Shown in pieces: positions 2,432-45,568 of a stretch of DNA of 64,000 nt. The notes below the pieces were generated by a model, which did not search any database, had not been told where the DNA came from, and worked only from the letters and a program-made list of their open reading frames with translations. This DNA is from an uncultured Candidatus Saccharibacteria bacterium (GTDB lineage: Bacteria; Patescibacteriota; UBA1384; 2-12-FULL-50-11), in assembly GCA_964599405.1 (NCBI GenBank), contig CAZRED010000001.1:75528-139527 (forward strand), in the 5' to 3' direction. Positions within the stretch are counted from its first letter, which is position 1, and each line of letters starts with the position of its first letter. Made by a program: the position numbers and the translations under genes.

Positions 2432-4203
2432 TACGGCGCTACCCCCTCGGCTGGCGGAGCAGCTTCCTCAGCTTTTTGGACAAATCCGTATTCAACAGTA
2501 ATTGCTTGGCGCAGTAGTGGCAGCCGGTTGATCCACCAGCCAGGGGTAATGGTTACTTCAGCCGCTTCGGCACCGTAGGCCTCCTTTAGGATCTGACCCA
2601 CCGCATCCTTTGACTGATTTTTCACTTTTTTGGCCACCTCGGCTTTATCAATCTTCGGTACGACATAGGCAGTTCCGGCAATCTCAAAATCAAAGCTGTT
2701 TTTGTCGTCGCCAATTTTGACTGTTTTATAAGTTGGCGGGGTGTCTTCCGGAAAAACAATTTGTTGGCTAGCGGAGATTTTACTGTCAAATACGGCGGCA
2801 AAAAGGGAATTAGCGACTGTTTCGTCAAATACAATTGTTCCGTATTCAATAGTGATTGCGGCGGTTGCGCCATCAGTCTCCGTCCCCACCGCTTTGTCGG
2901 CGCCCTCTTTGCTAATCGTTTCCCAAATGCCGTCTTCCAACAGTTTCTGACCAACGGCTTTGGTTTTCAGCTCGGCTATCGCTTCCGCAATGGCTTCTTT
3001 TTTTAGCTCTAAAATTGCTGTGTCCACATCATCTTGGGCTAATATCGTCACAACTTTCGTCAAACCACCGCTAGTATTACCAGTCCCACTAATCCGTGAC
3101 GACAGTCCGTTAATTGTGAAAGTTGCTGCTGTCAGATTATGGGATTCACCGGCTTGGTCGGCGGTTAGTCCAATGTTGACAGACGTTGAATTACAGACGG
3201 TACCGCCGCCGCTAAAGTTGCCAGCTGGAATCGTCACCAAGCTATTAGTTAGAAACGTTTTGCCGCCAGCACTAACTTTACTGCCAGCCGCTACAGCATG
3301 CGACGCTGAATCCTCACAGTTACGGAACGGGATGGTGCCGCTAGCTTTGCTACCGACGTCTTTCTTGCCGGTGGCCGTAATCGCTTTGGTTTTTTCTTTA
3401 CTAACCAGTAGTTTGTTGCCAGTAACGGTATTGGCAATCTGGGTGTCGGCGGCGGTCACGGCACTAATGGCCACAGTTTCGCTTAAGGGTTCCGCCGGAA
3501 AAGTTACAACCACTTTGGCGCGGGGCACAAATACGTAGCCCAACAAACAAATTACTAGAAAAATACCAGCGCCAATCGCTACGGAACGCCAAGGAATTTT
3601 TACTTCTTTACGAACCGAAAAACCGCTGCGCGAAATGACTGGTGGCAAGTCTTCCTCGCTACCGCGAGGTTCATTCGGCACTACTTCCGGTTTTTTGGTT
3701 ATTTCTTCTGGGATAATCGTCACCGGCTCGAACGACTCACCCGGTTGGGTAATCCCATCTGCTGGGCTATCCGATTCTCCTGCCTCGAGTTCGGCATCCT
3801 CAAGTGTCGGCTGATCGCCGGCTACTTGTCCTTCGAGATTTTGTCGGTTCGGATCGTACTGCTGAACTTTAACGCCGCCGATTACTTCGTCCGGAACGCC
3901 CGGAGTGATTGGCGCGGCCGTCGCAGCCGCCACGGCCGGTAGGGAAGCGATGGTGGCGTAGGTGTTAATTCCCACCTGTTTAGCCAACCTTTGGCCGATT
4001 TTGTTGGTGGAGACAAAAGCGACGTTTTTGCCTAACCGTTTCGCTTCTTTGGAAAGCAGTTTTAAGTTAACTAGGCTTTGAAAAAGGGGGCTATTCTTCG
4101 CCAACACTAAAACGATGTCTTTGTCGGTCGATTGAGCAATCTTATCGATCACTGAGGTGATCTCTTCGCTTGGTTCTAGGTAGACCGGTTTGTAGGCCAT
4201 CAC
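2431..4203 (-). CDS. membrane-anchored protein with Ala/Pro-rich linker and large extracytoplasmic domain (possible lineage-specific divisome partner of FtsA)
   Basis: 590 aa. Conserved about 90 aa cytoplasmic N-domain, a low-complexity AAATAAPITPGVPDE linker, one TM, then a G/S/T-rich ectodomain. 4-nt overlap with the upstream ftsA-like gene. Confidence 0.55.
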   Translation of the reverse strand: MMAYKPVYLEPSEEITSVIDKIAQSTDKDIVLVLAKNSPLFQSLVNLKLLSKEAKRLGKNVAFVSTNKIGQRLAKQVGINTYATIASLPAVAAATAAPITPGVPDEVIGGVKVQQYDPNRQNLEGQVAGDQPTLEDAELEAGESDSPADGITQPGESFEPVTIIPEEITKKPEVVPNEPRGSEEDLPPVISRSGFSVRKEVKIPWRSVAIGAGIFLVICLLGYVFVPRAKVVVTFPAEPLSETVAISAVTAADTQIANTVTGNKLLVSKEKTKAITATGKKDVGSKASGTIPFRNCEDSASHAVAAGSKVSAGGKTFLTNSLVTIPAGNFSGGGTVCNSTSVNIGLTADQAGESHNLTAATFTINGLSSRISGTGNTSGGLTKVVTILAQDDVDTAILELKKEAIAEAIAELKTKAVGQKLLEDGIWETISKEGADKAVGTETDGATAAITIEYGTIVFDETVANSLFAAVFDSKISASQQIVFPEDTPPTYKTVKIGDDKNSFDFEIAGTAYVVPKIDKAEVAKKVKNQSKDAVGQILKEAYGAEAAEVTITPGWWINRLPLLRQAITVEYGFVQKAEEAAPPAEGVAP

Positions 4204-7171: not shown

Positions 7172-7924
7172 CTAATTGCCCGGTAGGAAGAATTGCCAGA
7201 TGTTGCCAGCGCTGCCGGTTGTTGGCTCAGTTGTTTCGGCCGGCGCTTCAGCCACTGGGGCGGAGAGCAGACCCCGCCAGAAATCTAGAATTGGGATTGT
7301 CAGCAACAGCGAGATATCGCTCTTTGGCTTGATCTCAAAAGTCTCGCCGCTGCCAGCAGCATCAAGCTGCTTCCACCACTCGCCGTAGATGGTATTGTAG
7401 GCTTTTTCAATTGTTAAAATTTTCTCGGCGTAACCAACTGTCGAACGAATCGGTGTGCCGCGCTCGTACGCTAGCACCGCTCCGCCGCCGCCGTTGTAGG
7501 CAATTAAACCTTTGCGCACATTGCCGCCATAGTCCTGAATTCGGGTGCAGATGTAGTAAGCTCCGAAGCGGATAGACATGTCGGGATTAGTGGTTAAGTC
7601 GTTTGGCGTAAATGGGGAAACTCCCAGCCTTTTGGCTACCGAATTGGCGGTGGAGGGAATAAATTGGGTCATCCCAATCGCCCCGGCGTAGGAACGAGCG
7701 CCTTCTTTCCAGCCACTCTCAACCATAATAAGCGCCGACAAAAAGTTCGGTGTGGCAATATTCGTACAGTATTCGTTGGTCCACTTCGCTAACGATGCCC
7801 GATGTTTTTCTGGTAATGGGTAAGCAACGCTGGCAAAAAGCACTGGGCCCAAAACAATCACAATAGCGCCCAGTGAAAGTAGTGCTAAAACCACGTACAG
7901 CCCAATTTTTGTCCGCGCGGTCAT
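7172..7924 (-). CDS. lytic transglycosylase (SLT domain), membrane anchored
   Basis: ESGWKEGARSYAGAIGMTQFIPSTA SLT motif. Start moved to MTARTKIGLYVV... to avoid overlap with tRNA. Confidence 0.75.
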   Translation of the reverse strand: MTARTKIGLYVVLALLSLGAIVIVLGPVLFASVAYPLPEKHRASLAKWTNEYCTNIATPNFLSALIMVESGWKEGARSYAGAIGMTQFIPSTANSVAKRLGVSPFTPNDLTTNPDMSIRFGAYYICTRIQDYGGNVRKGLIAYNGGGGAVLAYERGTPIRSTVGYAEKILTIEKAYNTIYGEWWKQLDAAGSGETFEIKPKSDISLLLTIPILDFWRGLLSAPVAEAPAETTEPTTGSAGNIWQFFLPGN

Positions 7925-19729: not shown

Positions 19730-19802
19730 AGGCCTGTAGCTCAGCGGTAGAGCAGGTGCCTTTTAAGCACTGTGCGGCGGGTTCGACTCCCGCCAGGCCT
19801 AC
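19730..19802 (+). tRNA. tRNA-Lys(UUU)
   Basis: AGGCCTG acceptor, D-arm GCTCAGCGGTAGAGC, anticodon loop CTTTTAA, T-arm GCGGGTTCGACTCCCGC. Confidence 0.8.
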
Positions 19803-21600: not shown

Positions 21601-22656
21601 ATGAGTGATGCCGTCGCCCTCGTCAAAGATCCAGTTGAGTCTGCTAAAGAAGCGGGTCTGCGTTATTTTTCCGACAATAAACTAACGATTAGCCGCGTCA
21701 AACACGGCGACGGGTTCCGCTACATTAGTAAAGACGAGGAACCGATCAGTGACGTCGACACCATTACTCGCATTAAATCCTTGGTCCTGCCGCCGGCTTG
21801 GGTAGAAGTGAAAATATCGCCAGTCGATAACAGCCACCTGCAAGCAGTGGGTATCGACGAAAAAGGCCGCAAGCAATACCGCTACCACCCGGAGTGGCTG
21901 AAGTTCCGCGACCAAACCAAGTACGACAAATTGATTGATTTCGGCAAAGCCCTGCCGAAAATCCGCACCCAAGTTTCCGTTGATATGTCTAAACAAGGCT
22001 TACCGCGCGAGAAAGTATTAGCAGCAATAGTCAAAATGCTGGAGAAAACGATGATTCGCATCGGTAATGAACAGTACGCCAAAGAAAACAAATCCTACGG
22101 CCTAACTACCCTCCAAAACCGCCATGTTGACGTTGGAACCGAGAAAGTCACCATCAATTTCAAGGGCAAAAGCGGCCAGTTTCACACTATTGAGTTGGAA
22201 GACCGCCGGCTGGCCCGGCTGATTGGCAAACTCCAGGATTTACCCGGTCAAGATTTGTTCCAGTTTATTGATGACAACGACAACCTCCATGGCATCGACT
22301 CGGCTGACGTTAACGAATACATCCAAGAAGCCGCTAACGATGAGTTTACCGCCAAAGATTTCCGGACTTGGCGTGGCACGGTCTTGGCCGCCTGGTTTCT
22401 GGCTGACTGCGAGCGCGCCAAAACCCAAAAGGAAAACAAAAAACTCGTCACCCAAATAGTTAAAGAAGTTGCCGCCGAACTAGGTAATACGCCAACAGTT
22501 TGCCGCAAGTGCTATATCCACCCGACTGTCATTGACAGCTTCCTGGCCGAATCCGGTATGACTATTAAAGCCATCAACACCATAGAAGTGGACACGGTTG
22601 ATTTACTGCCGGAAGAAAAAGTCGTTCTGGAATTCCTGAAACAAAACACCGCCTAA
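21601..22656 (+). CDS. DNA topoisomerase IB (poxvirus-like bacterial TopIB)
   Basis: RYFSDNK...GFRY...LPPAWVEVKISP...GRKQYRYHPEW; 351 aa. Confidence 0.75.
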   Translation: MSDAVALVKDPVESAKEAGLRYFSDNKLTISRVKHGDGFRYISKDEEPISDVDTITRIKSLVLPPAWVEVKISPVDNSHLQAVGIDEKGRKQYRYHPEWLKFRDQTKYDKLIDFGKALPKIRTQVSVDMSKQGLPREKVLAAIVKMLEKTMIRIGNEQYAKENKSYGLTTLQNRHVDVGTEKVTINFKGKSGQFHTIELEDRRLARLIGKLQDLPGQDLFQFIDDNDNLHGIDSADVNEYIQEAANDEFTAKDFRTWRGTVLAAWFLADCERAKTQKENKKLVTQIVKEVAAELGNTPTVCRKCYIHPTVIDSFLAESGMTIKAINTIEVDTVDLLPEEKVVLEFLKQNTA

Positions 22657-22736: not shown

Positions 22737-22768
22737 GAACAAATATACGTTTAAACATATATTTGTTC
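22737..22768. promoter_or_regulatory. 32-bp near-perfect palindrome with core ATATACGTTTAAACATATAT
   Basis: GAACAAATATACGTTTAAACATATATTTGTTC; the same core recurs at 45539-45558 and 32446-32465. Confidence 0.6.
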
Positions 22769-25934: not shown

Positions 25935-26042
25935 GTTTCAATTGTATAGCAATTGGGGCATTGCTTGGTGGTCGGCAAACCGACCGCCATAGAAAAAGTG
26001 CGAAGGGCGGCGGCGCCCTTCGCACTGTGGGGGGGTGGTGGG

Positions 26043-26696
26043 TCAGAAGGAATCAAAACCAAGCTTCTTGAGCTTTTCTTCCGAATCGCTGACACCCGCA
26101 GCCTTCAAGAATACGACCGCATTGTCGTAGGCCTGGAAGTAGAACTTGGGTGTGTTCGTAAACTCCCACTTGTTCTTCCTCCCAGCAATCTGCCGGTAGC
26201 CAATCAGGTGCCCGTAGGTCGCCGACGTTCCGGGTGGAGATAGCTCCACACATGCCTCGCGAAGCTTGGTGATCTCGATGAAAGAGAGACCCTCCTTGAG
26301 AACGATCCCTTTCTCTTCAAGCAATCCGTATATAGCTTTTCGTGAGGCCGGGCTTAGGCCGGGTAGCCTATCGATATCGTCCTTACGACACCTTGCCAGC
26401 TCTGACAGTTTATTCACGCCCAGTTCGACCAGCGGCTTCCATGCCCGTTCTGGCAGACCAGCGGCGCTCAGCACTTCGTCTTCGGCTATCGCCGTAGACT
26501 CTGGGATAGTCGTCTTTTCCGGCGGCGGCACTCCTTTGCACCGGCTAATGATAGATTGTAGCTCGTCCTGTCGGTCTTCCAGCCATTTGATGGTCTTGTC
26601 TAGGTCGCTACGCACCGTTTTGAAATCGAGGATCATCTGGCGATTCAGTTCCCAAGTGTCCGAAGCTATCATGCGTACTTCTTCATCTCTATCCAT
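26043..26696 (-). CDS. helix-hairpin-helix protein with RNAP alpha-CTD-like domain
   Basis: Start MDRDEEVRMIAS with GGAGG 9 nt upstream. VNKLSELARCRKDDIDRLPGLSPASRKAIYGLLEEKGIVL resembles the alpha-CTD HhH. Confidence 0.5.
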   Translation of the reverse strand: MDRDEEVRMIASDTWELNRQMILDFKTVRSDLDKTIKWLEDRQDELQSIISRCKGVPPPEKTTIPESTAIAEDEVLSAAGLPERAWKPLVELGVNKLSELARCRKDDIDRLPGLSPASRKAIYGLLEEKGIVLKEGLSFIEITKLREACVELSPPGTSATYGHLIGYRQIAGRKNKWEFTNTPKFYFQAYDNAVVFLKAAGVSDSEEKLKKLGFDSF

Positions 26697-26697
26697 G

Positions 26698-26760
26698 CTT
26701 AAAGAACCTCCATAAGGGTTGTACGAGCATCGTACTGGAAAATTTTTGCCAGGCAAGGAT
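26698..26760 (-). promoter_or_regulatory. palindrome GTACGAgcaTCGTAC upstream of 26043..26696
   Basis: Perfect 6-bp arms at about 26725-26739. Confidence 0.35.
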
Positions 26761-26853
26761 GGAGCTGGGATTTTTGCCTGTGTGAAACACAATTAGTAAT
26801 AAAAGGGCGCGGATTGGCCGAAGCCGCACCGCGCAATTGTTTGATATTGTCTG

Positions 26854-27498
26854 TTACTCCGGGACGCCCATGGCCAACCGCTGATCAGCGCAGCTCATGG
26901 TGCCGAAAGGAACACGCTTGAAGATCCAGCTCCCCAGCTTGCGAAGCGCCTCCCTGTCCAGATCGCTGATGAGGTCGCCCTTCTTGTCGCTTAAGGAGCG
27001 GGCTTGATGCCTGAGATCGCCTTTAGCGGCCCAGAGGCCAGGGAGATACCAGATCTCCCAGTATTGACCATTGTCGGCCCTTCTTGATCGAAGGCAGACG
27101 AATCCCCAGGATTCCAGCATTGAACAGGCCTCGGCGTATTTCCTCTCTGTCCAATAGTAACCGCAGAGGGACTGGATCATGATGGATGGAGAAGCGTGCT
27201 TGTTCTCCTTGTCAGGACAGACAAACCATGCCTCTTTTGGCTCGCCTGTCTCCTTCCAGTGCGGACCAACCAGCGGGTCGGCCTGGGGAGTGGGCATTGG
27301 CTCGGTTAGCTCGCGCCTGACAAGGCGTCCCTCAACGCAGTCGACACGACACTGTCCAGCGAGCATCGCTTCCAGCATGTCTAGCTCGTTACTGAGCAGA
27401 TTGCCTAGACCCAGCTCACCATCGTTGTCCACTGAAGGCTTCCTACGGGTTACGCGGATTTCTTTCATAAATACCTCAAAGATCGAAGATGGGAACAT
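26854..27498 (-). CDS. hypothetical protein (island gene)
   Basis: W/Y/C-rich; start uncertain (MFPSSIF or MKEIRV); no motif. Confidence 0.45.
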   Translation of the reverse strand: MFPSSIFEVFMKEIRVTRRKPSVDNDGELGLGNLLSNELDMLEAMLAGQCRVDCVEGRLVRRELTEPMPTPQADPLVGPHWKETGEPKEAWFVCPDKENKHASPSIMIQSLCGYYWTERKYAEACSMLESWGFVCLRSRRADNGQYWEIWYLPGLWAAKGDLRHQARSLSDKKGDLISDLDREALRKLGSWIFKRVPFGTMSCADQRLAMGVPE

Positions 27499-27569
27499 TC
27501 TATCAGATGTATCTAGAAAATCCAACGAGTAAATCCCGCTTTTACCTGTGGAAAAGTCAACGAACGGTA

Positions 27570-27600
27570 TAGAAAAAGCGGCGGGTTTCCCCGCCGCCAG
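27570..27600 (-). terminator. rho-independent terminator for 27625..28290
   Basis: Minus strand GGCGGCGGGgaaaCCCGCCGC then TTTTTCT. Confidence 0.75.
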
Positions 27601-27624: not shown

Positions 27625-28290
27625 CTACTCCGCTTTGCGCATGACGACCATGTCGCAAGGGACTTTGATCCCAGTCCTCGATCCCTGCCAGCCGTCACCG
27701 CTCCAGATCGTTTCACCTTCCCAGTGGTGGTTGGGCACGTAGCAAGTGAAGCCTTCGCGGTGGTCATAGACAGCTACTCTCTGGTGAATGCTGCCCGACC
27801 ACTGGTCGGCCATCGCTTGGGGAACGCCGTCGTAGGTGACGACGATGCCCTTCTGGCAAAGTTGTCCGAGTGTGTTGAGCAGACGTTTCAGCCGCTCTGG
27901 CGAGAAGTAATACGTCACGCTGATCAGGACTGCCCAATCAACTCGACTTCCTTCCGCCAACATCGAAACACAGACATCGTCAGCTGGGCCATGATAGTAG
28001 CGGGCGTAAAATCCCCGTCCCATTGTCCAGCGCAGGTTGTTGGCCGAGATGTCGTTGGCGTAACGCTCGCCGTGGCGAGCATGTGCGCAGAGAATGTCGG
28101 CGACCACTCCTGTGGCTGAGCCAATATCTAAAACCGTATCTTGGGCACCGATGAACGGCACCGCCTTGTCTTCGAAGACTTGGTGGAGGTTCACCTTGGC
28201 CAGCTGCAAACGCTGGCAGTACTCCCTGGGGTCATTGTGAAGTGCGAGGACCGCTTGGTCCTCCATATTGAGGGGCCATCCGGTTACCAT
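27625..28290 (-). CDS. class I SAM-dependent methyltransferase (substrate unknown)
   Basis: VLDIGSATGVVADIL motif I; start moved to MVTGWPLNMEDQ directly after the promoter. Confidence 0.6.
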   Translation of the reverse strand: MVTGWPLNMEDQAVLALHNDPREYCQRLQLAKVNLHQVFEDKAVPFIGAQDTVLDIGSATGVVADILCAHARHGERYANDISANNLRWTMGRGFYARYYHGPADDVCVSMLAEGSRVDWAVLISVTYYFSPERLKRLLNTLGQLCQKGIVVTYDGVPQAMADQWSGSIHQRVAVYDHREGFTCYVPNHHWEGETIWSGDGWQGSRTGIKVPCDMVVMRKAE

Positions 28291-28326
28291 GTTGCGATTT
28301 ATACCACATTTCTCGAGAAAAGTCAA
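28288..28326 (-). promoter_or_regulatory. leaderless promoter cassette TTGACT-17-TATAAA-7 nt-ATG with XhoI-centred palindrome
   Basis: Minus strand: TTGACT (plus 28321-28326), TATAAA (plus 28298-28303), ATG at 28290. Palindrome TTTCTCGAGAAA. Confidence 0.6.
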
Positions 28327-28403
28327 GTATTAAAGCCGCAATTTCGCCAATGGAAAATCCAGCAAGAGTGACGGGGTAGCGGAAAATAATAATCACTGTT
28401 ACG

Positions 28404-29341: not shown

Positions 29342-29531
29342 CAAGTGCCGGTCGGTACTGGTCAATGAACTTATTTGTCCACTCGTGTAGCTCTGGGCTA
29401 ATGACAGTTTTGGCTGGTTTTTTGACGATAACCTCAACCTGGTCGCCCACGGTGACGTTCAGTTTTTTCAGCTCGCTTTTAGGAATAATTACTCCTGTTG
29501 AACTGCCGATCTTGATCAGTTTTTGAGTCAT
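29322..29531 (-). CDS. AbrB/MazE-fold antitoxin (Phd-like partner of Doc)
   Basis: MTQKLIKIGSSTGVIIPKSELKKLNVTVGD; 20-nt overlap with doc. Confidence 0.65.
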   Translation of the reverse strand: MTQKLIKIGSSTGVIIPKSELKKLNVTVGDQVEVIVKKPAKTVISPELHEWTNKFIDQYRPALDELAKK

Positions 29532-29565
29532 GTTTCGATTATAACTTTATAATAATAATCGTCAA
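29529..29565 (-). promoter_or_regulatory. leaderless promoter TTGACG-16-TATAAT-6 nt-ATG for the antitoxin gene
   Basis: Minus strand: TTGACG (plus 29560-29565), TATAAT (plus 29538-29543), ATG at 29531. Confidence 0.55.
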
Positions 29566-29666
29566 TGTGAAAAACTTCCGGCGGGTGGGGTTGAGGTGGA
29601 GGGGTTCATTTTTCGCTGTTTTTCGGTTATACTCTTCGCAACGCACTTTCAATTGGTAAAAAACAA

Positions 29667-30284: not shown

Positions 30285-30401
30285 ACCTGGACCGCACGAC
30301 CTGAAAAGGTACGGCGGTTTTTTTCTTTTGCCTGTGGAAAAGCCCGCCCTGAGCTTGTCGAAGGGTCAACGGCCAGCGGGTGGGTTCATTATAAAATGTT
30401 T

Positions 30402-31449: not shown

Positions 31450-31582
31450 GGTTTTCTCCGTCGCGTCTTACAGCAACCAAAGAGCCATGTGAAGGTGCGC
31501 AATTCGCCGCAAGTATATACCTTAAAAACAGGAATAACTATGAAAACTTACAAAAATAACGACGGGTGGGGTTGAAGTATAG

Positions 31583-31610
31583 AAAAAGCGGCGGGGAAAA
31601 CCCGCCGCAA
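31583..31610 (-). terminator. rho-independent terminator for 31630..32016
   Basis: Minus strand GCGGCGGGttttCCCCGCCGC then TTTTTCT. Confidence 0.75.
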
Positions 31611-31629: not shown

Positions 31630-32016
31630 TCAGTCCAGAAGCCTGAACTCGACGTCAAAGTCGTGCCGAACACTCCCCACGAACCCGACCAGCTTGAGTT
31701 TCCCGTCTGCATCCAGCCGTATGCGCATGGATGTTAGCTTGTCGTCAAACTCCTTTCCCACTGACATGAGCGGTTCGGTAACAGGTGTGATGGTGACGAA
31801 GTGGGGCCTGTCCTCATCAGGAGGATTGGCGGAAACAGACGCGATCGTTCCATAGAGCTCACACGGCAGATGGGTTCTTGGCTTTCCGTATCTGTTGTAT
31901 ATCTCCATGTGGAACTTTTTGCCGATTAGATCCTCAGGCATCAGACCGTCAAACTTGTCAGAAACAAGCTTTCTAGTCAGAGCCACCGATCCTTTATCAG
32001 AAAGTACGCTGAGCAT
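31630..32016 (-). CDS. hypothetical protein (island gene)
   Basis: Start moved to MLSVLSDKGS; the ORF-track TTG start coincides with the -35 TTGACT. Confidence 0.5.
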   Translation of the reverse strand: MLSVLSDKGSVALTRKLVSDKFDGLMPEDLIGKKFHMEIYNRYGKPRTHLPCELYGTIASVSANPPDEDRPHFVTITPVTEPLMSVGKEFDDKLTSMRIRLDADGKLKLVGFVGSVRHDFDVEFRLLD

Positions 32017-32052
32017 ACTGCGAAATATATTACTTTTCTCGAGAAAAGTCAA
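32014..32052 (-). promoter_or_regulatory. second copy of leaderless promoter cassette TTGACT-17-TATATT-7 nt-ATG with XhoI-centred palindrome
   Basis: Minus strand: TTGACT (plus 32047-32052), TATATT (plus 32024-32029), ATG at 32016. Near-identical to 28288-28326. Confidence 0.6.
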
Positions 32053-32096
32053 GGGTTAGAACCGCAATTTTGCCTGTGGAAAAGTCGTTGTCTAAC

Positions 32097-32126
32097 CTTG
32101 ACTTTTTCTTGGTTTACAGGTATAAT
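32097..32126 (+). promoter_or_regulatory. sigma70-like promoter TTGACT-17-TATAAT for 32142..32375
   Basis: cTTGACTttttcttggtttacaggTATAAT. Confidence 0.65.
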
Positions 32127-32141
32127 TCTCTCGTCACTTAG

Positions 32142-32375
32142 GTGGCTGGAGGAAGTGTGAGAACCCTAACAATCATCGCGTCGCACGACGAACAAACCGA
32201 GTACTTGCACAACGTCTTAAAAGAAGGCGGCTGCAATACCTTTCCGGAATACGAGGGTGAATGTCCAAGCTGCAAAAACATCCTCAGATCCAACCTTACT
32301 GAAGTTAACTGCCCTGGTTTTGGTTGCGATGGTCTTGAGCCAGTCAGACTGGAACACAAACACAGATTCGGCTAG
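32142..32375 (+). CDS. small zinc-ribbon protein
   Basis: 77 aa, GTG start; CPSC...CPGFGC. Confidence 0.45.
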   Translation: MAGGSVRTLTIIASHDEQTEYLHNVLKEGGCNTFPEYEGECPSCKNILRSNLTEVNCPGFGCDGLEPVRLEHKHRFG

Positions 32376-32445: not shown

Positions 32446-32465
32446 ATATACGTTAAAACATATAC
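32446..32465. promoter_or_regulatory. variant copy of ATATACGTTTAAACATATAT palindrome
   Basis: ATATACGTTAAAACATATAC. Confidence 0.45.
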
Positions 32466-32525: not shown

Positions 32526-33305
32526 TTATGGTCGGAGAGTCCCGGCAAAGACCTGCCAGGCCAGTAAGCTCTTGGCGACAAGTGAAAGAATAATATACGC
32601 CCGTTCGCCGTAGAGATAATCCGCCCATTTACCGATCTTTTTGTACTGGAGGGTCATATTGATAGCAAAACAGTTGAAGAAAACGAAGATCGAAACGTAA
32701 ATCCAGTAAACAAACGTTGGGATATCGCCGGAGCCGTAGCGACTAGCCGCCCAAAACCAAATTGCCACCACCAACCACGGGATTACCCCGGCAAACGTCC
32801 CCAACTTAAAGGCCAACCAATTGGGTTTTTGGCCGCTCTCTAATGTGCCTTGGTTGTATATTTCCATTGCCAGGCCAGTGAGATTCATGATTGCCACTAA
32901 GGCAAAAATCATCAGCAAACTCGTCAGGTCATAGATCCCCACCAACATAGCAATGGCCACCATCATGACTGAAGCCGAGACGCTGTACTCCCACCACCGG
33001 GCCTTATTGACGCCCCTAAGCAGGTTGGCGTTGTAACTGCGATTGTAAACAGTGGCAATAATCAGGTGGGCCAGGGCGGAGATTGCCAGAAATCCCGCTA
33101 CCAGCCAGACCAGAGGCATATTAAACAGTGTCTCACTAGCTGGGATCAGCGATTGGCTAGCGATATCAAAGCGCAAGAAACCGACATTAACCGGCAAGGA
33201 AAAATCAGCGCTCAAATATACAATCGCCGCCGCCTGCAGTGCATGCAGCAGTGCCATAACCAAATTGAACTTACGTAGCTTTGCTAATCTAACGTCTTGC
33301 TCCAT
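32526..33305 (-). CDS. heliorhodopsin (7-TM retinal protein)
   Basis: Full-length collinearity with heliorhodopsin: FNLVMALLHALQ, RWWEYSVSASVMMV (E counterion), GVIPW, KWADYLYGERAYIILSLVAKSLLAWQ (Schiff-base Lys). Confidence 0.8.
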   Translation of the reverse strand: MEQDVRLAKLRKFNLVMALLHALQAAAIVYLSADFSLPVNVGFLRFDIASQSLIPASETLFNMPLVWLVAGFLAISALAHLIIATVYNRSYNANLLRGVNKARWWEYSVSASVMMVAIAMLVGIYDLTSLLMIFALVAIMNLTGLAMEIYNQGTLESGQKPNWLAFKLGTFAGVIPWLVVAIWFWAASRYGSGDIPTFVYWIYVSIFVFFNCFAINMTLQYKKIGKWADYLYGERAYIILSLVAKSLLAWQVFAGTLRP

Positions 33306-33484
33306 CGCCCCTCCTCCATTTATTTAACGATACCGCAATCCGCCAACGCAACAAGCAATATCAAACCAAACGCTAGGCAGGGAGTGGAATTTCTCTTTAG
33401 TTAGTTGGTTAGTTCGGGTTTTTCTTCTATGTGTTTGTCAGTAGTCATTATGGTGTTCTAGCAGTATTAGCGAAGCGTCAGAGT

Positions 33485-34000
33485 TAGAAAGTTAGTTATA
33501 TATTTATAAAGAACTCCCCTTTTTCCATTTCCATACCTTAAAGATAGTCATATTTTGGTGCAACTGCTGCACCAGTTCAAAGCCGGGGTTACAAAGCTTA
33601 GTTATATATTTATAGAGACTCCACTTTGGCGATTGTACTTACCTGTTAGAGCGATCTTTTTTGTCTCAGCTGCTGAGACGTTTTGTTAGATGAAACTAAT
33701 GAGTACTAAGTGGTGTAGATATGTATAGAAAGTGTAGTGATTTTTATTGATGAAGCTGTGAATGTCTTGGAAGTGGTATCAGGCCGGATGTTTCTTAGTA
33801 TATATATTAATAAAGACTCTACTTTTTCTTTCAGTTAACCAGGAAATTGAACGAATTTAGGAGCAACAGCTGCTCTTTTTGGGTAGCGAAGCCGAACATT
33901 AGCAGGGGGTCAGTAATATATATAAAGAGTAGTGAATTTTGTTTACTAAACCTGCAAAGATCGGCTTTTCGGTATCAGGCCTGATACCGGTGTCTCCAGG
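33485..34000 (+). repeat. tandem array of 5 degenerate ~105-bp units, each with AT-rich TATAAAG box and downstream hairpin
   Basis: TATA(A/G)AG boxes at 33505, 33611, 33723, 33809, 33921. Hairpins 50-52 nt downstream: GGTGCAactgcTGCACC (33557), GTCTCAGCtgcTGAGAC+GTTTTG (33663), GAGCAacagcTGCTC+TTTTTG (33859), GGTATCAGGccTGATACC (33972). Confidence 0.6.
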
Positions 34001-34153
34001 TAATTAATTGGCGTGCAGTGACGGTATACTTACGAAATAAATCGCTACTCCAACCGCCGCCAGAATTATCGCTACCCACCAAACTGGATTCATGGTTTTA
34101 GTTTAGCAAAAACGGTAGTACCCAACGAATAATCGCTTGTATAGTGGAAGAGT

Positions 34154-36770: not shown

Positions 36771-36807
36771 AAGCCTATTCTATACAAATATTCTCGAAAA
36801 GAAGTGA

Positions 36808-37899
36808 CTATTTTTTGCCTTTGCGGCGGTTATCGTCGCGGCAGAGCATTTGGCAGTTATCGGCATTAGTTTTTCCGCCCTCAACCCACGGCGTAATGTG
36901 GTCGGCTTCCATTTCTTCAATCTCAAAATGTTTACCACAATCCGGACAAACACCTTTCTGTCGTTCAAAGGCCTCGCGTTTCATGTTATCGGTAAACGCC
37001 CGAATATTTAGACACTTTTCTTCACGGGTTAGAACATATTCATAGATACCGGACTTTTTTGTTACGTCTTCGTCCATCATCAACTGTGTAACTTCCGCTT
37101 CCAGCTTGTCGGTATCGAACTTATCGTCCTTAAATTGATTGTAAAATCTGCCCCAATCCAAACCTTTCATTTCTTTTCGATACTTCGGAAAAGTCAGACG
37201 TGTCCAGCTTATAACATTTTGGAAGTACGACCAAAGCTCATTGGCATTTTGGTCGTGTTGGTGCTTGGCCATGTAGTCTTCTATTTTTCCGTCGTTAATC
37301 CAAGCTAGCGTAGTTTCCAGTATCTCTTGCCGAATTGGCGAACCGTTCACTAGCTGCCCGCCATCGCTAGCTAGCAAATAAGCTGCACAGTTAGATTTGC
37401 TGAATTTCAGTTTGGCGTCACTTAGCCATGGTCCAGTATAAATCGCATTGCGGAGCTCTTGGTCGGTTAATTTTTCGCCAGCGATGTTAATGATTCTGAA
37501 CCAATCCAGTCTTTCTTTGTCGGTGCCTTCGCACCAGTAAATCATCAGCTCATAGTCCTGAATTTGCTTCTGTTCCTCATCAGTTAGGTTGTGGAAAAAG
37601 CGATCTTTGAGCGAAAAATCACCGTTGACATATTGCCCAATACTTATTGTTCGTTGCTGGCCGTCCATAACTTCAAAGTTCCCTTGGTCGGTTTTGACCC
37701 AATACATTACGTTCAGCGGAAAACCATTTTTAATCGTTTCTATTACTGCGTCGCGCTGCTTGTCTTTATAAACAAATTCACGTTGGTATCTTGGGCGGAT
37801 GTCGAGTTTACCACCGTAAGCTATGACGCCTTCCTCGGCGCTGTCTTTGTAGCCGACGATCACTTCTCGAACAGGAATTCGTTGTAGTTCAATTTTCAT
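36808..37899 (-). CDS. DUF262 (DGQQR NTPase-like, ParB fold) + HNH endonuclease; SspE/GmrSD-like
   Basis: VMDGQQRTISIGQY (codons verified at 37651-37665). C-terminal CPDCGKHF...ADHITPW...NADNCQMLCRDDNRRKG HNH. Confidence 0.75.
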   Translation of the reverse strand: MKIELQRIPVREVIVGYKDSAEEGVIAYGGKLDIRPRYQREFVYKDKQRDAVIETIKNGFPLNVMYWVKTDQGNFEVMDGQQRTISIGQYVNGDFSLKDRFFHNLTDEEQKQIQDYELMIYWCEGTDKERLDWFRIINIAGEKLTDQELRNAIYTGPWLSDAKLKFSKSNCAAYLLASDGGQLVNGSPIRQEILETTLAWINDGKIEDYMAKHQHDQNANELWSYFQNVISWTRLTFPKYRKEMKGLDWGRFYNQFKDDKFDTDKLEAEVTQLMMDEDVTKKSGIYEYVLTREEKCLNIRAFTDNMKREAFERQKGVCPDCGKHFEIEEMEADHITPWVEGGKTNADNCQMLCRDDNRRKGKK

Positions 37900-43384: not shown

Positions 43385-43486
43385 AAAAACAATCCAGCCC
43401 TCGAGGGCATTGTATATGTTCTAACATATATTCTAATTTGAACGGATTTTGCGGTTTTAAGCACAGTATATTAAGGTAGTTCAGTA

Positions 43487-45530: not shown

Positions 45531-45568
45531 TTGCATCCGTATACGTTTAAACATATATTGTGCCCATG
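45531..45568 (+). promoter_or_regulatory. promoter TTGCAT-17-TATATT-6 nt-ATG overlapped by palindrome ATATACGTTTAAACATATAT
   Basis: TTGCAT 45531-45536, TATATT 45554-45559, ATG 45566; palindrome 45539-45558. Confidence 0.55.

What the first reader, a model, noticed from the sequence alone, without database searches (positions are those of the whole stretch)
28288..28326. Duplicated leaderless promoter cassette with XhoI-centred palindrome drives two island genes
Two near-identical 40-bp cassettes read TTGACT-TTTCTCGAGAAA(T/A)GT(GG/AA)-TATA(AA/TT)-TCGCA(AC/GT)-ATG, at 28288-28326 and 32014-32052.
- Each places the start codon 7 nt after the -10, implying leaderless mRNAs for the SAM-MTase and the 31630 gene.
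- The ORF-track TTG start of both genes coincides with the -35 hexamer, so those starts are artefacts.
- A third leaderless promoter (TTGACG-16-TATAAT-6-ATG) serves the Phd-like antitoxin.
- dnaK has a normal SD, so leaderless initiation appears to be specific to island genes.
- The palindrome CTTGACTTTTCTCGAGAAAAGTCAAG also creates a back-to-back -35 for a divergent transcript.
Basis: seen in the sequence. Interest (0 to 1): 0.6.

Follow-up and report, generated by a model that had tools for sequence, protein, structure and literature searches.

The report
Reused strong promoter module, probably leaderless
Two unrelated genes in a variable region of an uncultivated Patescibacteria genome share a copied ~75-base near-consensus promoter that probably makes mRNAs starting at the ATG, and its 19-base core recurs at promoters of other Patescibacteria, so it is a real but fairly ordinary regulatory module.

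Summary
Both 40-nt cassettes lie on the minus strand at the stated coordinates and are 33/40 identical, with a 19-nt exact core.

- **Extent:** the repeat is longer than reported. It is 84% identical over 50 nt and 80% over 70 nt, and reaches a box (TTTTCCACAGGCAAAA) about 15 nt upstream of the -35. That box occurs five times in the island. The similarity stops at the ATG, and the two downstream proteins are unrelated.
- **Source:** a Patescibacteria (CPR) genome.
- **Wider occurrence:** the core CTTGACTTTTCTCGAGAAA, followed by a -10 at 16-17 nt, occurs at eight other independent promoter contexts in Patescibacteria MAGs and metagenome contigs. One is a near-identical leaderless copy.
- **Architecture:** C-rich/-35/T-tract/GC/A-tract/TG/-10/YRY-on-ATG matches published rules for strong sigma-70 promoters, so the "XhoI palindrome" may be intrinsic spacer. 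An operator role is not excluded.
- **Leaderless geometry is window-wide:** 17/63 ORFs against 9/228 controls. It is not island-specific.
- **Corrections:** the claimed 26-bp palindrome and back-to-back -35 do not exist. The dyad is 12 bp at site 1 and 18 bp at site 2.
- **Weak points at site 1:** the -10 is TATAAA, and the methyltransferase-like N-terminus is unresolved.

Verdict: a reused strong promoter module, of modest interest.

The parts
28281..28357 (-). Promoter module copy 1: box A, UP-like stretch, -35, spacer, -10, discriminator and ATG
   Evidence: Direct repeat D1; identity profile; alignments A1 and A4.
32007..32083 (-). Promoter module copy 2
   Evidence: 78% identical over 77 nt, 84% over 50 nt.
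28321..28326 (-). Site 1 -35 hexamer, TTGACT. Its TTG is the artefactual longest-ORF start.
28309..28320 (.). Site 1 12-bp dyad TTTCTCGAGAAA, occupying spacer positions 1-12
28298..28303 (-). Site 1 -10, TATAAA. It lacks the final T and is preceded by TGG (a TGn extended -10).
28288..28290 (-). Site 1 ATG, 7 nt after the -10; the proposed leaderless start
   Evidence: The start is uncertain.
27625..28290 (-). Methyltransferase-like gene: 221 aa from the ATG, called as 213 aa by Logan
   Evidence: Pfam Methyltransf_25 at E=0.0012, below the cut-off; homologues.
32047..32052 (-). Site 2 -35 hexamer, TTGACT
32032..32049 (.). Site 2 18-bp perfect dyad ACTTTTCTCGAGAAAAGT, overlapping the -35 and the spacer
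32024..32029 (-). Site 2 -10, TATATT
32014..32016 (-). Site 2 ATG, 7 nt after the -10; the same start that the gene callers chose
31630..32016 (-). 128-aa ORFan gene driven by copy 2
   Evidence: The database holds only the identical sequence. No Pfam or PADLOC hit. AF2 pLDDT 55, predicted all-beta.
28342..28357 (-). Box A copy (TTTTCCATTGGCGAAA), 15 nt upstream of the site 1 -35
32068..32083 (-). Box A copy (TTTTCCACAGGCAAAA), 15 nt upstream of the site 2 -35 and between the two divergent promoters
27497..27555 (-). Diverged third module: box A (27540-27555), TTGGAT (27520-27525), spacer TTTCTAGATACATCTGA, TAGAAT (27497-27502). A leader with GAGG follows, then the ATG at 27468 of a 204-aa ORFan.
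26729..26787 (-). Fourth box A (26772-26787) with TTGCCT-16-TACGAT. A leader with GGAGG follows, then the ATG at 26696 of a 217-aa ORFan.
30326..30341 (-). Orphan box A between convergent genes, with no promoter after it
29529..29565 (-). Antitoxin promoter TTGACG-16-TATAAT-6-ATG, with leaderless geometry
   Evidence: The 69-aa gene call uses this ATG.
32098..32144 (+). Separate divergent promoter TTGACT-17-TATAAT, with a GGAGG SD and a GTG start for a 77-aa Cys-rich ORF
27568..27598 (-). Terminator hairpin plus a TTTTTCTATA tail after the methyltransferase-like gene. 19 nt are identical to the terminator at 31578-31608.
31578..31608 (-). Matching terminator after the 128-aa gene

Best explanation
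The two cassettes are copies of one reused promoter module of about 70-77 nt, in a Patescibacteria (CPR) genome.

**What each copy is.** Each is a near-consensus housekeeping (sigma-70/sigma-A type) promoter with these elements in order:
1. a C-rich end of the upstream region;
2. a -35 TTGACT;
3. a 17-nt spacer built as T-tract, GC core (CTCGAG), A-tract, then a G-rich/TG stretch;
4. a -10;
5. a 6-nt discriminator;
6. a pyrimidine-A-T start triplet whose A is the A of the ATG.

**What follows from that (inferred).** RNA polymerase would start at or within 1-3 nt of the ATG, and the mRNA would be translated without a Shine-Dalgarno leader. This mode appears common throughout the genome.

**The palindrome.** The XhoI-centred dyad is most simply the symmetric consequence of a T-tract and an A-tract flanking a GC core in an optimised spacer. 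It need not be a dedicated operator.

**Origin.** The module was propagated by duplication or promoter capture in front of unrelated ORFan genes of a variable, defence-gene-rich region. Its 19-nt core belongs to a promoter class shared by other Patescibacteria.

**Shown versus inferred.**
- Shown: the sequence architecture, the duplication, and the recurrence at promoter-like sites elsewhere.
- Inferred: promoter activity, the transcription start site, leaderless translation, and the absence of a repressor.
For: - **The duplication is real.** The 18-mer search finds only these two sites at up to 3 mismatches (0.14 expected); their 19-nt core is identical. Identity is 84% over 50 nt and 80% over 70 nt, and ends at the ATG. 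The downstream proteins are unrelated.
- **The core marks promoters elsewhere.** Four of 5 GTDB-genome hits and 6 of 6 metagenome hits carry TAnnnT 16-17 nt downstream, preceded by CC and followed by an ORF. Three of the genome hits are labelled Patescibacteria or Berkelbacteria.
- **The source is Patescibacteria.** The window's DnaK clusters at 90% or more with a protein named 'Patescibacteria group bacterium'.
- **A near-identical copy exists in another genome.** The L002 copy is 85% identical to site 1 over 54 nt, includes TCGCAAC-ATG, and opens a 126-aa ORF.
- **The architecture matches published rules.** These are C-enrichment at the 3' end of the UP element, a four-region spacer (T-tract, GC, AT-tract, G-rich with TG), the TSS about 7 nt after the -10, and a YRY start element (PMC12641261).
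- **Non-palindromic relatives keep the same four-region layout.** Examples are L002b TTTCAGGGTAAATGTGC, L006 TTTGGCTGTTTTTATGG and window 32098 TTTTCTTGGTTTACAGG.
- **Leaderless geometry is enriched window-wide.** 17/63 against 9/228, p=5e-7.
- **Gene calls** use the ATG at 32016 and the antitoxin ATG.
- **Leadered members of the class carry a stable 5' stem-loop plus an SD** (z -2.1 to -2.6). This fits highly expressed genes.
Against: - There are no transcript or protein data.
- The site 1 -10 (TATAAA) lacks the normally essential final T.
- The methyltransferase-like homologue starts 44 codons into the long ORF, and the gene caller prefers M21. Translation of that gene may therefore begin downstream.
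- L002b keeps TCGCAGTAC without an ATG and uses a leader with GGAGG. Conservation up to the 'ATG' therefore need not reflect a start codon.
- The published spacer rules call for only slight GC enrichment. They do not explain exact conservation of CTCGAG across genomes of 38-55% GC.
- All labelled hits but one are Patescibacteria. This hints at a lineage-specific reader of the sequence.
- The search pattern itself forced the dyad, so its conservation was not independently tested.
Confidence: 0.55

Rival explanations
1. The dyad TTTCTCGAGAAA (18 bp at site 2) is the operator of a dimeric repressor conserved across Patescibacteria. Bound between the -35 and the -10, it would occlude RNA polymerase. 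The two island genes, and the secreted or ORFan genes behind the same core in other genomes, would form one regulon.
For: - The dyad is a perfect 12-bp palindrome in every instance, and 18 bp at site 2.
- The 20-nt stretch is identical in L003 and L007, which share the same tRNA-downstream context, while their -10 and flanks differ.
- The exact CTCGAG core is kept across genomes of 38-55% GC.
- The labelled genome hits are nearly all Patescibacteria.
- This genome does use palindromic operators. A different one, TATAYGTTTAAACRTATA, recurs at an XRE-family gene here and in relatives.
Against: - The search pattern imposed the dyad, so its conservation is ascertained rather than tested.
- The outer arms are not conserved beyond 12 bp: about 11/27 extra pairs by my count from the sequences, against 25% by chance.
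- No palindrome uncoupled from a -35 was found at an evident regulatory site in the window or the fetched loci; the one uncoupled match (L005 ~3964-3988) was not examined.
- No DNA-binding gene lies next to either copy.
- The 128-aa product is predicted all-beta, at low confidence.
- The downstream genes are heterogeneous.
Confidence: 0.3
2. The promoters are real, but one or both mRNAs are not leaderless. Translation would begin at a downstream start (28266 or 28194 for the methyltransferase-like gene, GTG 31986 for the 128-aa gene), and the conserved ATG would be only part of the initial transcribed sequence.
For: - Logan calls the methyltransferase-like gene from M21.
- Its only homologue, P0002, begins at the equivalent of V45.
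- L002b has TCGCAGTAC in place of TCGCAGTAT, then a leader and a GGAGG SD.
- GTG 31986 is preceded by AAGGA.
- Residues 1-18 of the 128-aa model are disordered.
Against: - None of the downstream candidates for the methyltransferase-like gene has an SD.
- AAGGA lies only 3 nt from GTG 31986.
- Gene callers chose ATG 32016.
- An ATG sits at the same offset in three module copies.
- The same -10-to-ATG geometry is strongly enriched across the window.
Confidence: 0.3
3. The repeats are boundaries of a mobile or recombinational cassette system, integron-like or MITE-like. Box A and the shared terminators would be recombination sites and would only incidentally carry promoters.
For: - There are five box A copies in one orientation within 6 kb.
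- Terminator tails and box B are shared between junctions.
- A relative has the methyltransferase-like gene next to the 75-aa and DnaJ genes, without the three intervening genes.
- A GTTAGAC...GTTCTAAC inverted pair flanks box A at site 2.
Against: - No integrase or transposase appears among the called genes.
- Box A lies 5' of the genes at a fixed 14-15 nt from a -35, not at the cassette 3' ends.
- There are no terminal inverted repeats or target duplications.
- Box A is absent from all other loci.
- The inverted pair is not present at site 1.
Confidence: 0.07

Closest known systems
Canonical sigma-70/sigma-A core promoters with an optimised spacer (four-region spacer, C-rich UP end, YRY start element; Kuo et al., NAR 2025, PMC12641261)
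   Same: The cassette has the -35 TTGACT, a 17-nt spacer, a TGn extended -10 (site 1) and a -10 hexamer. It has a C-run before the -35. Its spacer is ordered T-tract, GC, A-tract, G-rich. A YRY triplet falls where the TSS is expected.
   Different: The exact 12-bp palindromic realisation (TTTCTCGAGAAA) recurs verbatim in several Patescibacteria, which the general rules do not predict. The site 1 -10 ends in A.
Leaderless mRNA promoters of Actinobacteria and Deinococcus (-10 a few nt upstream of the start codon; PMC4633059, PMC4007540, PMC3160421, listed)
   Same: The -10 ends 6-7 nt before an ATG, there is no SD, and a toxin-antitoxin gene is among the cases. The geometry is enriched genome-wide.
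   Different: The phylum differs (Patescibacteria), and no TSS or ribosome data exist here. The literature search found no description of leaderless usage in this group.
Putative mobile promoters / promoter reuse (Nijveen, Matus-Garcia and van Passel 2012, PMC3575422)
   Same: Highly similar upstream sequence (at least 80% over at least 50 nt) lies before non-paralogous genes within one genome. A similar copy exists in another genome: L002, 85% over 54 nt.
   Different: The similarity lies at -75 to +3 relative to the start, not in the -150 to -50 window used to define PMPs. No mobilising element was identified.
Operators inside promoter spacers (classical repressor operators overlapping the -35 and spacer; MerR-type spacer operators), recalled from general knowledge
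   Same: Dyad symmetry lies between the -35 and the -10.
   Different: No cognate regulator was found. The spacer is 17 nt, not the 19-20 nt typical of MerR-type promoters. The dyad is always in one register with the -35.
Controller (C-protein) promoters of restriction-modification systems, which give leaderless transcripts (recalled from general knowledge)
   Same: A palindrome-bearing, probably leaderless promoter sits in a region with methyltransferase and restriction genes.
   Different: No small HTH C-protein gene follows either promoter. The palindrome is in the spacer rather than a pair of C-boxes upstream of or over the -35.

Membership tests
Sigma-70/sigma-A type promoter | -35 hexamer close to TTGACA | tested here: met
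   TTGACT (5/6) in both copies.
Sigma-70/sigma-A type promoter | Spacer of 17 +/- 1 nt | tested here: met
   17 nt in both copies. 16-17 nt in the eight other contexts.
Sigma-70/sigma-A type promoter | -10 hexamer TAnnnT close to TATAAT | tested here: inconclusive
   Site 2 is TATATT (5/6) and meets the feature. Site 1 is TATAAA, which lacks the final T; a TGn extended -10 may compensate.
Sigma-70/sigma-A type promoter | Transcription initiates there | not testable with these tools
   No RNA data are available.
Leaderless mRNA | -10 ends about 6-8 nt upstream of an AUG, with no SD | tested here: met
   7 nt at both sites and 6 nt at the antitoxin. Window-wide enrichment is 17/63 against 9/228.
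Leaderless mRNA | The TSS coincides with the start codon | not testable with these tools
   This needs dRNA-seq or 5' RACE. The only supporting point is that a YRY (CAT/TAT) triplet is centred on the A.
Leaderless mRNA | The protein N-terminus begins at that AUG | tested here: inconclusive
   Site 2: gene calls use ATG 32016, but no homologues exist. Site 1: the gene call starts at M21 and the homologue at V45.
Putative mobile promoter (PMP) | At least 80% identity over at least 50 nt of upstream sequence | tested here: met
   84% over 50 nt and 80% over 70 nt. L002 against site 1 is 85% over 54 nt.
Putative mobile promoter (PMP) | Adjacent coding sequences are not paralogous | tested here: met
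   BLASTP E=19. L002 ORF against the 128-aa protein gives E=0.11.
Putative mobile promoter (PMP) | The similarity lies in the -150 to -50 window relative to the translation start | tested here: not met
   The similarity spans about -75 to +3, because the genes have no leader.
Repressor operator in a promoter | Dyad-symmetric site overlapping core promoter elements | tested here: met
   12-bp dyad at site 1 and 18-bp dyad at site 2.
Repressor operator in a promoter | A cognate DNA-binding protein is encoded nearby or is identifiable | tested here: not met
   Pfam and PADLOC on the neighbouring genes show no HTH. AF2 of the 128-aa protein is low-confidence and all-beta.
Repressor operator in a promoter | The site is conserved independently of the promoter hexamers | tested here: inconclusive
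   The dyad was part of the search pattern. One -35-less match to the dyad (L005 ~3964-3988, ATTCTCGAGAAAAT) was not examined; no other turned up in the window or the fetched loci.
MerR-type spacer operator | Over-long 19-20 nt spacer carrying the dyad | tested here: not met
   The spacer is 17 nt.
R-M controller (C-protein) promoter | A small HTH controller gene is transcribed from the promoter | tested here: not met
   The downstream genes are a 221-aa methyltransferase-like protein and a 128-aa ORFan without an HTH hit.
Integron gene-cassette array | An integrase, and attC sites (R''-L''...L'-R', GTTRRRY) at the cassette 3' ends | tested here: not met
   No integrase appears among the called genes. 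The repeats lie 5' of the genes at a fixed distance from a -35.

The most novel reading that the evidence does not exclude
The 19-21-nt core ccCTTGACT-TTTCTCGAGAAA is a lineage-specific regulatory element of Patescibacteria. It would be either the operator of a phylum-wide repressor or a spacer motif read directly by the Patescibacteria RNA polymerase or sigma factor. It would mark a conserved set of strongly expressed, mostly secreted or ORFan genes, some of them leaderless.
Probability: 0.25. Interest if true: 0.6.

Novelty: new member of a known kind. Interest (0 to 1): 0.35.

Why it matters
- **Start-codon annotation.** Patescibacteria are uncultivated and ultra-small, and their transcription signals are almost uncharacterised. 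A recognisable strong-promoter class would improve start-codon annotation: longest-ORF starts here fall inside the -35.
- **Leaderless initiation.** The data suggest that leaderless initiation is common in at least this lineage.
- **Genetic tools.** The module offers a candidate portable promoter for the few Patescibacteria now in co-culture.
- **Gene regulation in a minimal genome.** Reuse of one module before unrelated ORFan genes in a defence-rich variable region illustrates promoter capture as a way to express newly acquired genes. If the dyad proves to be an operator, it would define one of the first regulons of this group.

Tried and rejected
- **Viral contig scan:** 0 hits for the 19-mer.
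- **Rfam at gathering thresholds:** only tRNAs.
- **Homologue searches:**
  - The methyltransferase-like gene has one non-identical homologue, P0002, whose contig DNA could not be fetched.
  - The 128-aa protein and the L003 secreted protein have only themselves. Phylogenetic footprinting was therefore not possible.
- **Relatives' dnaK contigs (L014, L015):** no cassette and no box A.
- **Extension beyond the window ends (L016, L017):** 2-3 kb gained, no further copy.
- **nhmmer profile of the core:** no extra copies in the window or the loci.
- **Discriminator TCGCA as a genome-wide motif:** not enriched, 6 against 3.7 expected.
- **Box A in other loci:** absent.
- **RNA folding of the first 50 nt of the putative leaderless mRNAs:** unremarkable.
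- **AlphaFold of the 128-aa protein without an alignment:** pLDDT 55. This is too poor for fold search, which I did not run.
- **PADLOC and PDB sequence searches of the two driven genes:** nothing useful.
- **Literature searches:**
  - The search for the sequence itself was swamped by shRNA hairpin oligos.
  - No paper was found on Patescibacteria promoter palindromes or leaderless use.
- **Taxonomy of the metagenome contigs via cluster names:** no names returned.
- **Rejected readings:** integron-like, MerR-type and C-protein (see the membership tests).
Full report
**1. The observation**

On the minus strand, 28327..28288 reads CTTGACTTTTCTCGAGAAATGTGGTATAAATCGCAACATG. On the same strand, 32053..32014 reads CTTGACTTTTCTCGAGAAAAGTAATATATTTCGCAGTATG.
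- An 18-mer search allowing 3 mismatches finds only these two sites, against 0.14 expected from shuffles.
- An independent Logan assembly of run SRR6868922 is 100% identical over 20,387 nt, so this is not an assembly artefact.
- The longest-ORF TTG starts at 28326 and 32052 are the first bases of the two TTGACT hexamers.

Three details need correcting.
- *The repeat is longer than 40 nt.* It is 78% identical over 77 nt, 80% over 70 nt and 84% over 50 nt. The identity stops at the ATG.
- *The 26-bp palindrome CTTGAC...GTCAAG does not exist.* The far arm overlaps the -10 and reads TATTAC (site 2) or CCACAT (site 1). The true dyads are 18 bp at site 2 (ACTTTTCTCGAGAAAAGT, 32032-32049) and 12 bp at site 1 (TTTCTCGAGAAA, 28309-28320). 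No back-to-back -35 arises. The divergent gene at site 2 has its own TTGACT-17-TATAAT promoter at 32098-32126, with a GGAGG SD and a GTG start.
- *The site 1 -10 is TATAAA.* It lacks the final T, although TGG (a TGn extended -10) precedes it.

**2. Surroundings**

The upstream part of the repeat contains a box, TTTTCCACAGGCAAAA.
- The box occurs five times on the minus strand between 26.7 and 32.1 kb (1.4 matches expected in the whole window).
- In four copies it lies 14-15 nt upstream of a -35-like hexamer: TTGACT twice, TTGGAT at 27525, and TTGCCT at 26756.
- The 27525 promoter (TTGGAT-TTTCTAGATACATCTGA-TAGAAT) looks like a diverged copy of the cassette, but it has a leader and an SD.
- The fifth box, at 30326, sits between convergent genes with no promoter after it.

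The junctions also share other short sequences.
- A terminator tail, CCCGCCGCTTTTTCTATAC, is identical over 19 nt at two junctions.
- A second box, CAACCCCACCCG, is also shared.

The genes in this stretch are mostly ORFans or defence-type genes:
- a sub-threshold methyltransferase-like protein;
- NADAR;
- Fic/Doc with its antitoxin;
- a metallo-beta-lactamase-fold protein;
- a heliorhodopsin;
- a low-GC block with EcoRI-type and N6/N4 methylases, GmrSD and a DndB-like protein.

The block lies between tRNA-Lys (19730-19802) and dnaK. The only homologue of the methyltransferase-like gene sits in a relative directly beside the 75-aa and DnaJ genes, without the three genes that intervene here. The region is therefore variable. 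No integrase was seen.

**3. Source organism, and the same core elsewhere**

The window's DnaK falls in a 90%-identity cluster with a protein that NCBI names 'Patescibacteria group bacterium'.

I scanned one genome per GTDB species for CTTGACTTTTCTCGAGAAA. This gave five hits.
- One lies inside a Phycisphaerae coding region and looks like chance.
- The other four have a TAnnnT hexamer 16-17 nt downstream.
- Of those four, two are in one Patescibacteria MAG, one is in a Berkelbacteria MAG, and one is on a 6-kb contig binned as Pseudomonadales that encodes a sortase.

The metagenome scan gave six more hits, all with the same promoter geometry and a preceding CC. After collapsing identical contigs, about eight independent contexts remain. 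Their genomes range from 38 to 55% GC. The downstream genes are heterogeneous: several signal-peptide proteins, a sortase, a DUF218 protein and ORFans.

One copy, L002, is 85% identical to site 1 over 54 nt. It includes the discriminator and ATG (TATAGT-TCGCAAC-ATG) and opens a 126-aa ORF unrelated to the window's proteins. It sits next to groES/groEL and a class I tRNA synthetase, so it is in core genome.

Other members of the class are leadered. These members have a stable 5' stem-loop (z -2.1 to -2.6) followed by an SD. L009 and L011 share 52 nt of promoter plus leader before different genes.

The cassette is therefore not an island peculiarity. It is a member of a promoter class found in several Patescibacteria.

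**4. How it most likely works**

The element order is:
1. CCC;
2. TTGACT;
3. TTTT;
4. CTCGAG;
5. AAA(A);
6. TGTGG (site 1);
7. the -10;
8. a 6-nt discriminator;
9. CAT or TAT, with the A of the ATG at its centre.

A 2025 cross-phylum study of mapped transcription start sites, which included one CPR species, together with spacer mutagenesis in E. coli, reported matching rules (PMC12641261):
- cytosine enrichment at the 3' end of the UP region;
- a spacer made of a T-tract, a GC-enriched core, a second AT-tract and a G-rich stretch including TG;
- start sites centred about 7 nt after the -10;
- a YRY 'start' triplet centred on the start site.

Spacer composition alone changed promoter strength up to 600-fold in that study.

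Non-palindromic relatives keep the same layout after TTGACT:
- L002b: TTTCAGGGTAAATGTGC;
- L006: TTTGGCTGTTTTTATGG;
- window 32098: TTTTCTTGGTTTACAGG.

On this reading the cassette is a near-optimal housekeeping promoter, and the dyad follows from a T-tract and an A-tract flanking a GC core. Most other putative promoters in the window have much weaker -35 hexamers, so the two cassettes should be among the strongest.

**5. Leaderless initiation**

The geometry is right: the -10, then 7 nt, then ATG, with no room for an SD.

It is not special to the island. Among 63 non-overlapping ORFs, 17 have TAnnnT ending 6-9 nt before the first ATG. Among internal in-frame ATGs the figure is 9 of 228 (odds ratio 9, p=5e-7). 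Of the 16 cases I sorted by position, ten lie outside the island; examples are the starts at 7924, 14829, 14852, 45566, 46006, 46742 and 52727. Other genes, such as dnaK, the metallo-beta-lactamase gene and the heliorhodopsin, have clear SDs. The genome appears to use both modes.

*Site 2.* Public gene calls use ATG 32016.

*Site 1.* The start is uncertain.
- The gene caller chose M21.
- The 76%-identical homologue begins at the equivalent of V45.
- Neither alternative has an SD.

*A caveat for both sites.* L002b conserves TCGCAGTAC without an ATG and continues into a leader. Conservation up to the ATG is therefore not proof that it is a start codon.

**6. Rivals**

*Operator.* A repressor operator remains a serious alternative.
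- For it: verbatim CTCGAG across divergent genomes; identity of the 20-nt stretch between L003 and L007, which share the same tRNA-downstream context, while their flanks differ; and near-restriction to Patescibacteria.
- Against it: the dyad was part of my search pattern; the outer arms are not conserved; no -35-less copy at an evident regulatory site and no candidate regulator were found.

*Recombination cassette.* An integron-like reading fails on the absence of an integrase and on the position of the repeats 5' of the genes.

**7. Comparison with known systems, and novelty**

The thing works like a sigma-70 promoter that gives leaderless mRNA, propagated like the 'putative mobile promoters' of Nijveen et al.
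- It meets their similarity and non-paralogy criteria.
- It does not meet their positional window.
- It is not a MerR-type promoter (the spacer is 17 nt).
- It is not a C-protein promoter (no controller gene).

I found no published description of this core, or of leaderless use in Patescibacteria. I rate it a new member of a known kind, with modest interest. The interest would rise if the dyad proves to be a lineage-specific operator or polymerase-recognition element.

Noticed in passing
window 22744-22761, 32447-32464, 43413-43430, 45540-45557; L014 462-479; L015 1071-1088, 1455-1472, 3565-3582: A second, unrelated palindrome, TATAYGTTTAAACRTATA, occurs four times in the window (0.02 expected). 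One copy overlaps the -10 of the leaderless-geometry HTH_3/XRE gene (ATG 45566). In two relatives it flanks the orthologous HTH gene and lies in the comEC/grpE divergent region. It is a likely operator of that XRE regulator, with sites reaching into the island.
   Followed up: partly
window-wide, e.g. ATG starts at 7924(-), 14829(-), 14852(+), 21601(+), 24092(-), 25934(-), 36770(-), 45566(+), 46006(+), 46742(+), 52727(+): A -10-like hexamer ends 6-9 nt before the first ATG in 17 of 63 ORFs, against 9 of 228 internal ATGs (p=5e-7). Leaderless initiation therefore looks common in this Patescibacteria genome, alongside SD-led genes.
   Followed up: partly
window 29582-29593 and 31563-31574 (minus); weaker near 30385 and 28910: Box B, CAACCCCACCCG(Y)CG, recurs upstream of the antitoxin and metallo-beta-lactamase promoters and after two terminators. 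Its function is unknown.
   Followed up: no
window 27568-27598, 31578-31608, 25997-26026 (minus): Three intrinsic terminators in the island share the tail GC(N)TTTTTCTAT. Two are identical over 19 nt (CCCGCCGCTTTTTCTATAC), which suggests that terminators were copied along with the promoters.
   Followed up: partly
window 33306-34153: An 850-nt AT-rich stretch without a long ORF lies upstream of the heliorhodopsin gene. It carries three copies of TTAGTTATATATTTATAAAGA (33492, 33598, 33796).
   Followed up: no
window 32526-33305 (-): A full-length heliorhodopsin (Pfam E=1e-93) is encoded in a Patescibacteria genome, inside the variable region.
   Followed up: no
window 21601-22656 (+), next to tRNA-Lys 19730-19802: A bacterial type IB topoisomerase gene and a GIY-YIG gene lie at the tRNA-Lys-proximal end of the variable region, which has no integrase.
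   Followed up: no
L003 5420-5475; L007 2818-2885 (minus); L009 165-228; L011 490-550 (minus): Leadered members of the same promoter class begin with a stable 5' stem-loop, (A)CUUUC...GAAA, whose stem sequence differs between loci (z -2.1 to -2.6). L009 and L011 share 52 nt of promoter plus leader before different genes.
   Followed up: partly
window 36770 region (minus), about 36776-36810: The promoter of the N6/N4 methylase gene reads CACTTCTTTTCGAGAATATTTGTATAGAAT-AGGCTT-ATG. It is a looser look-alike of the cassette spacer, with leaderless geometry.
   Followed up: no
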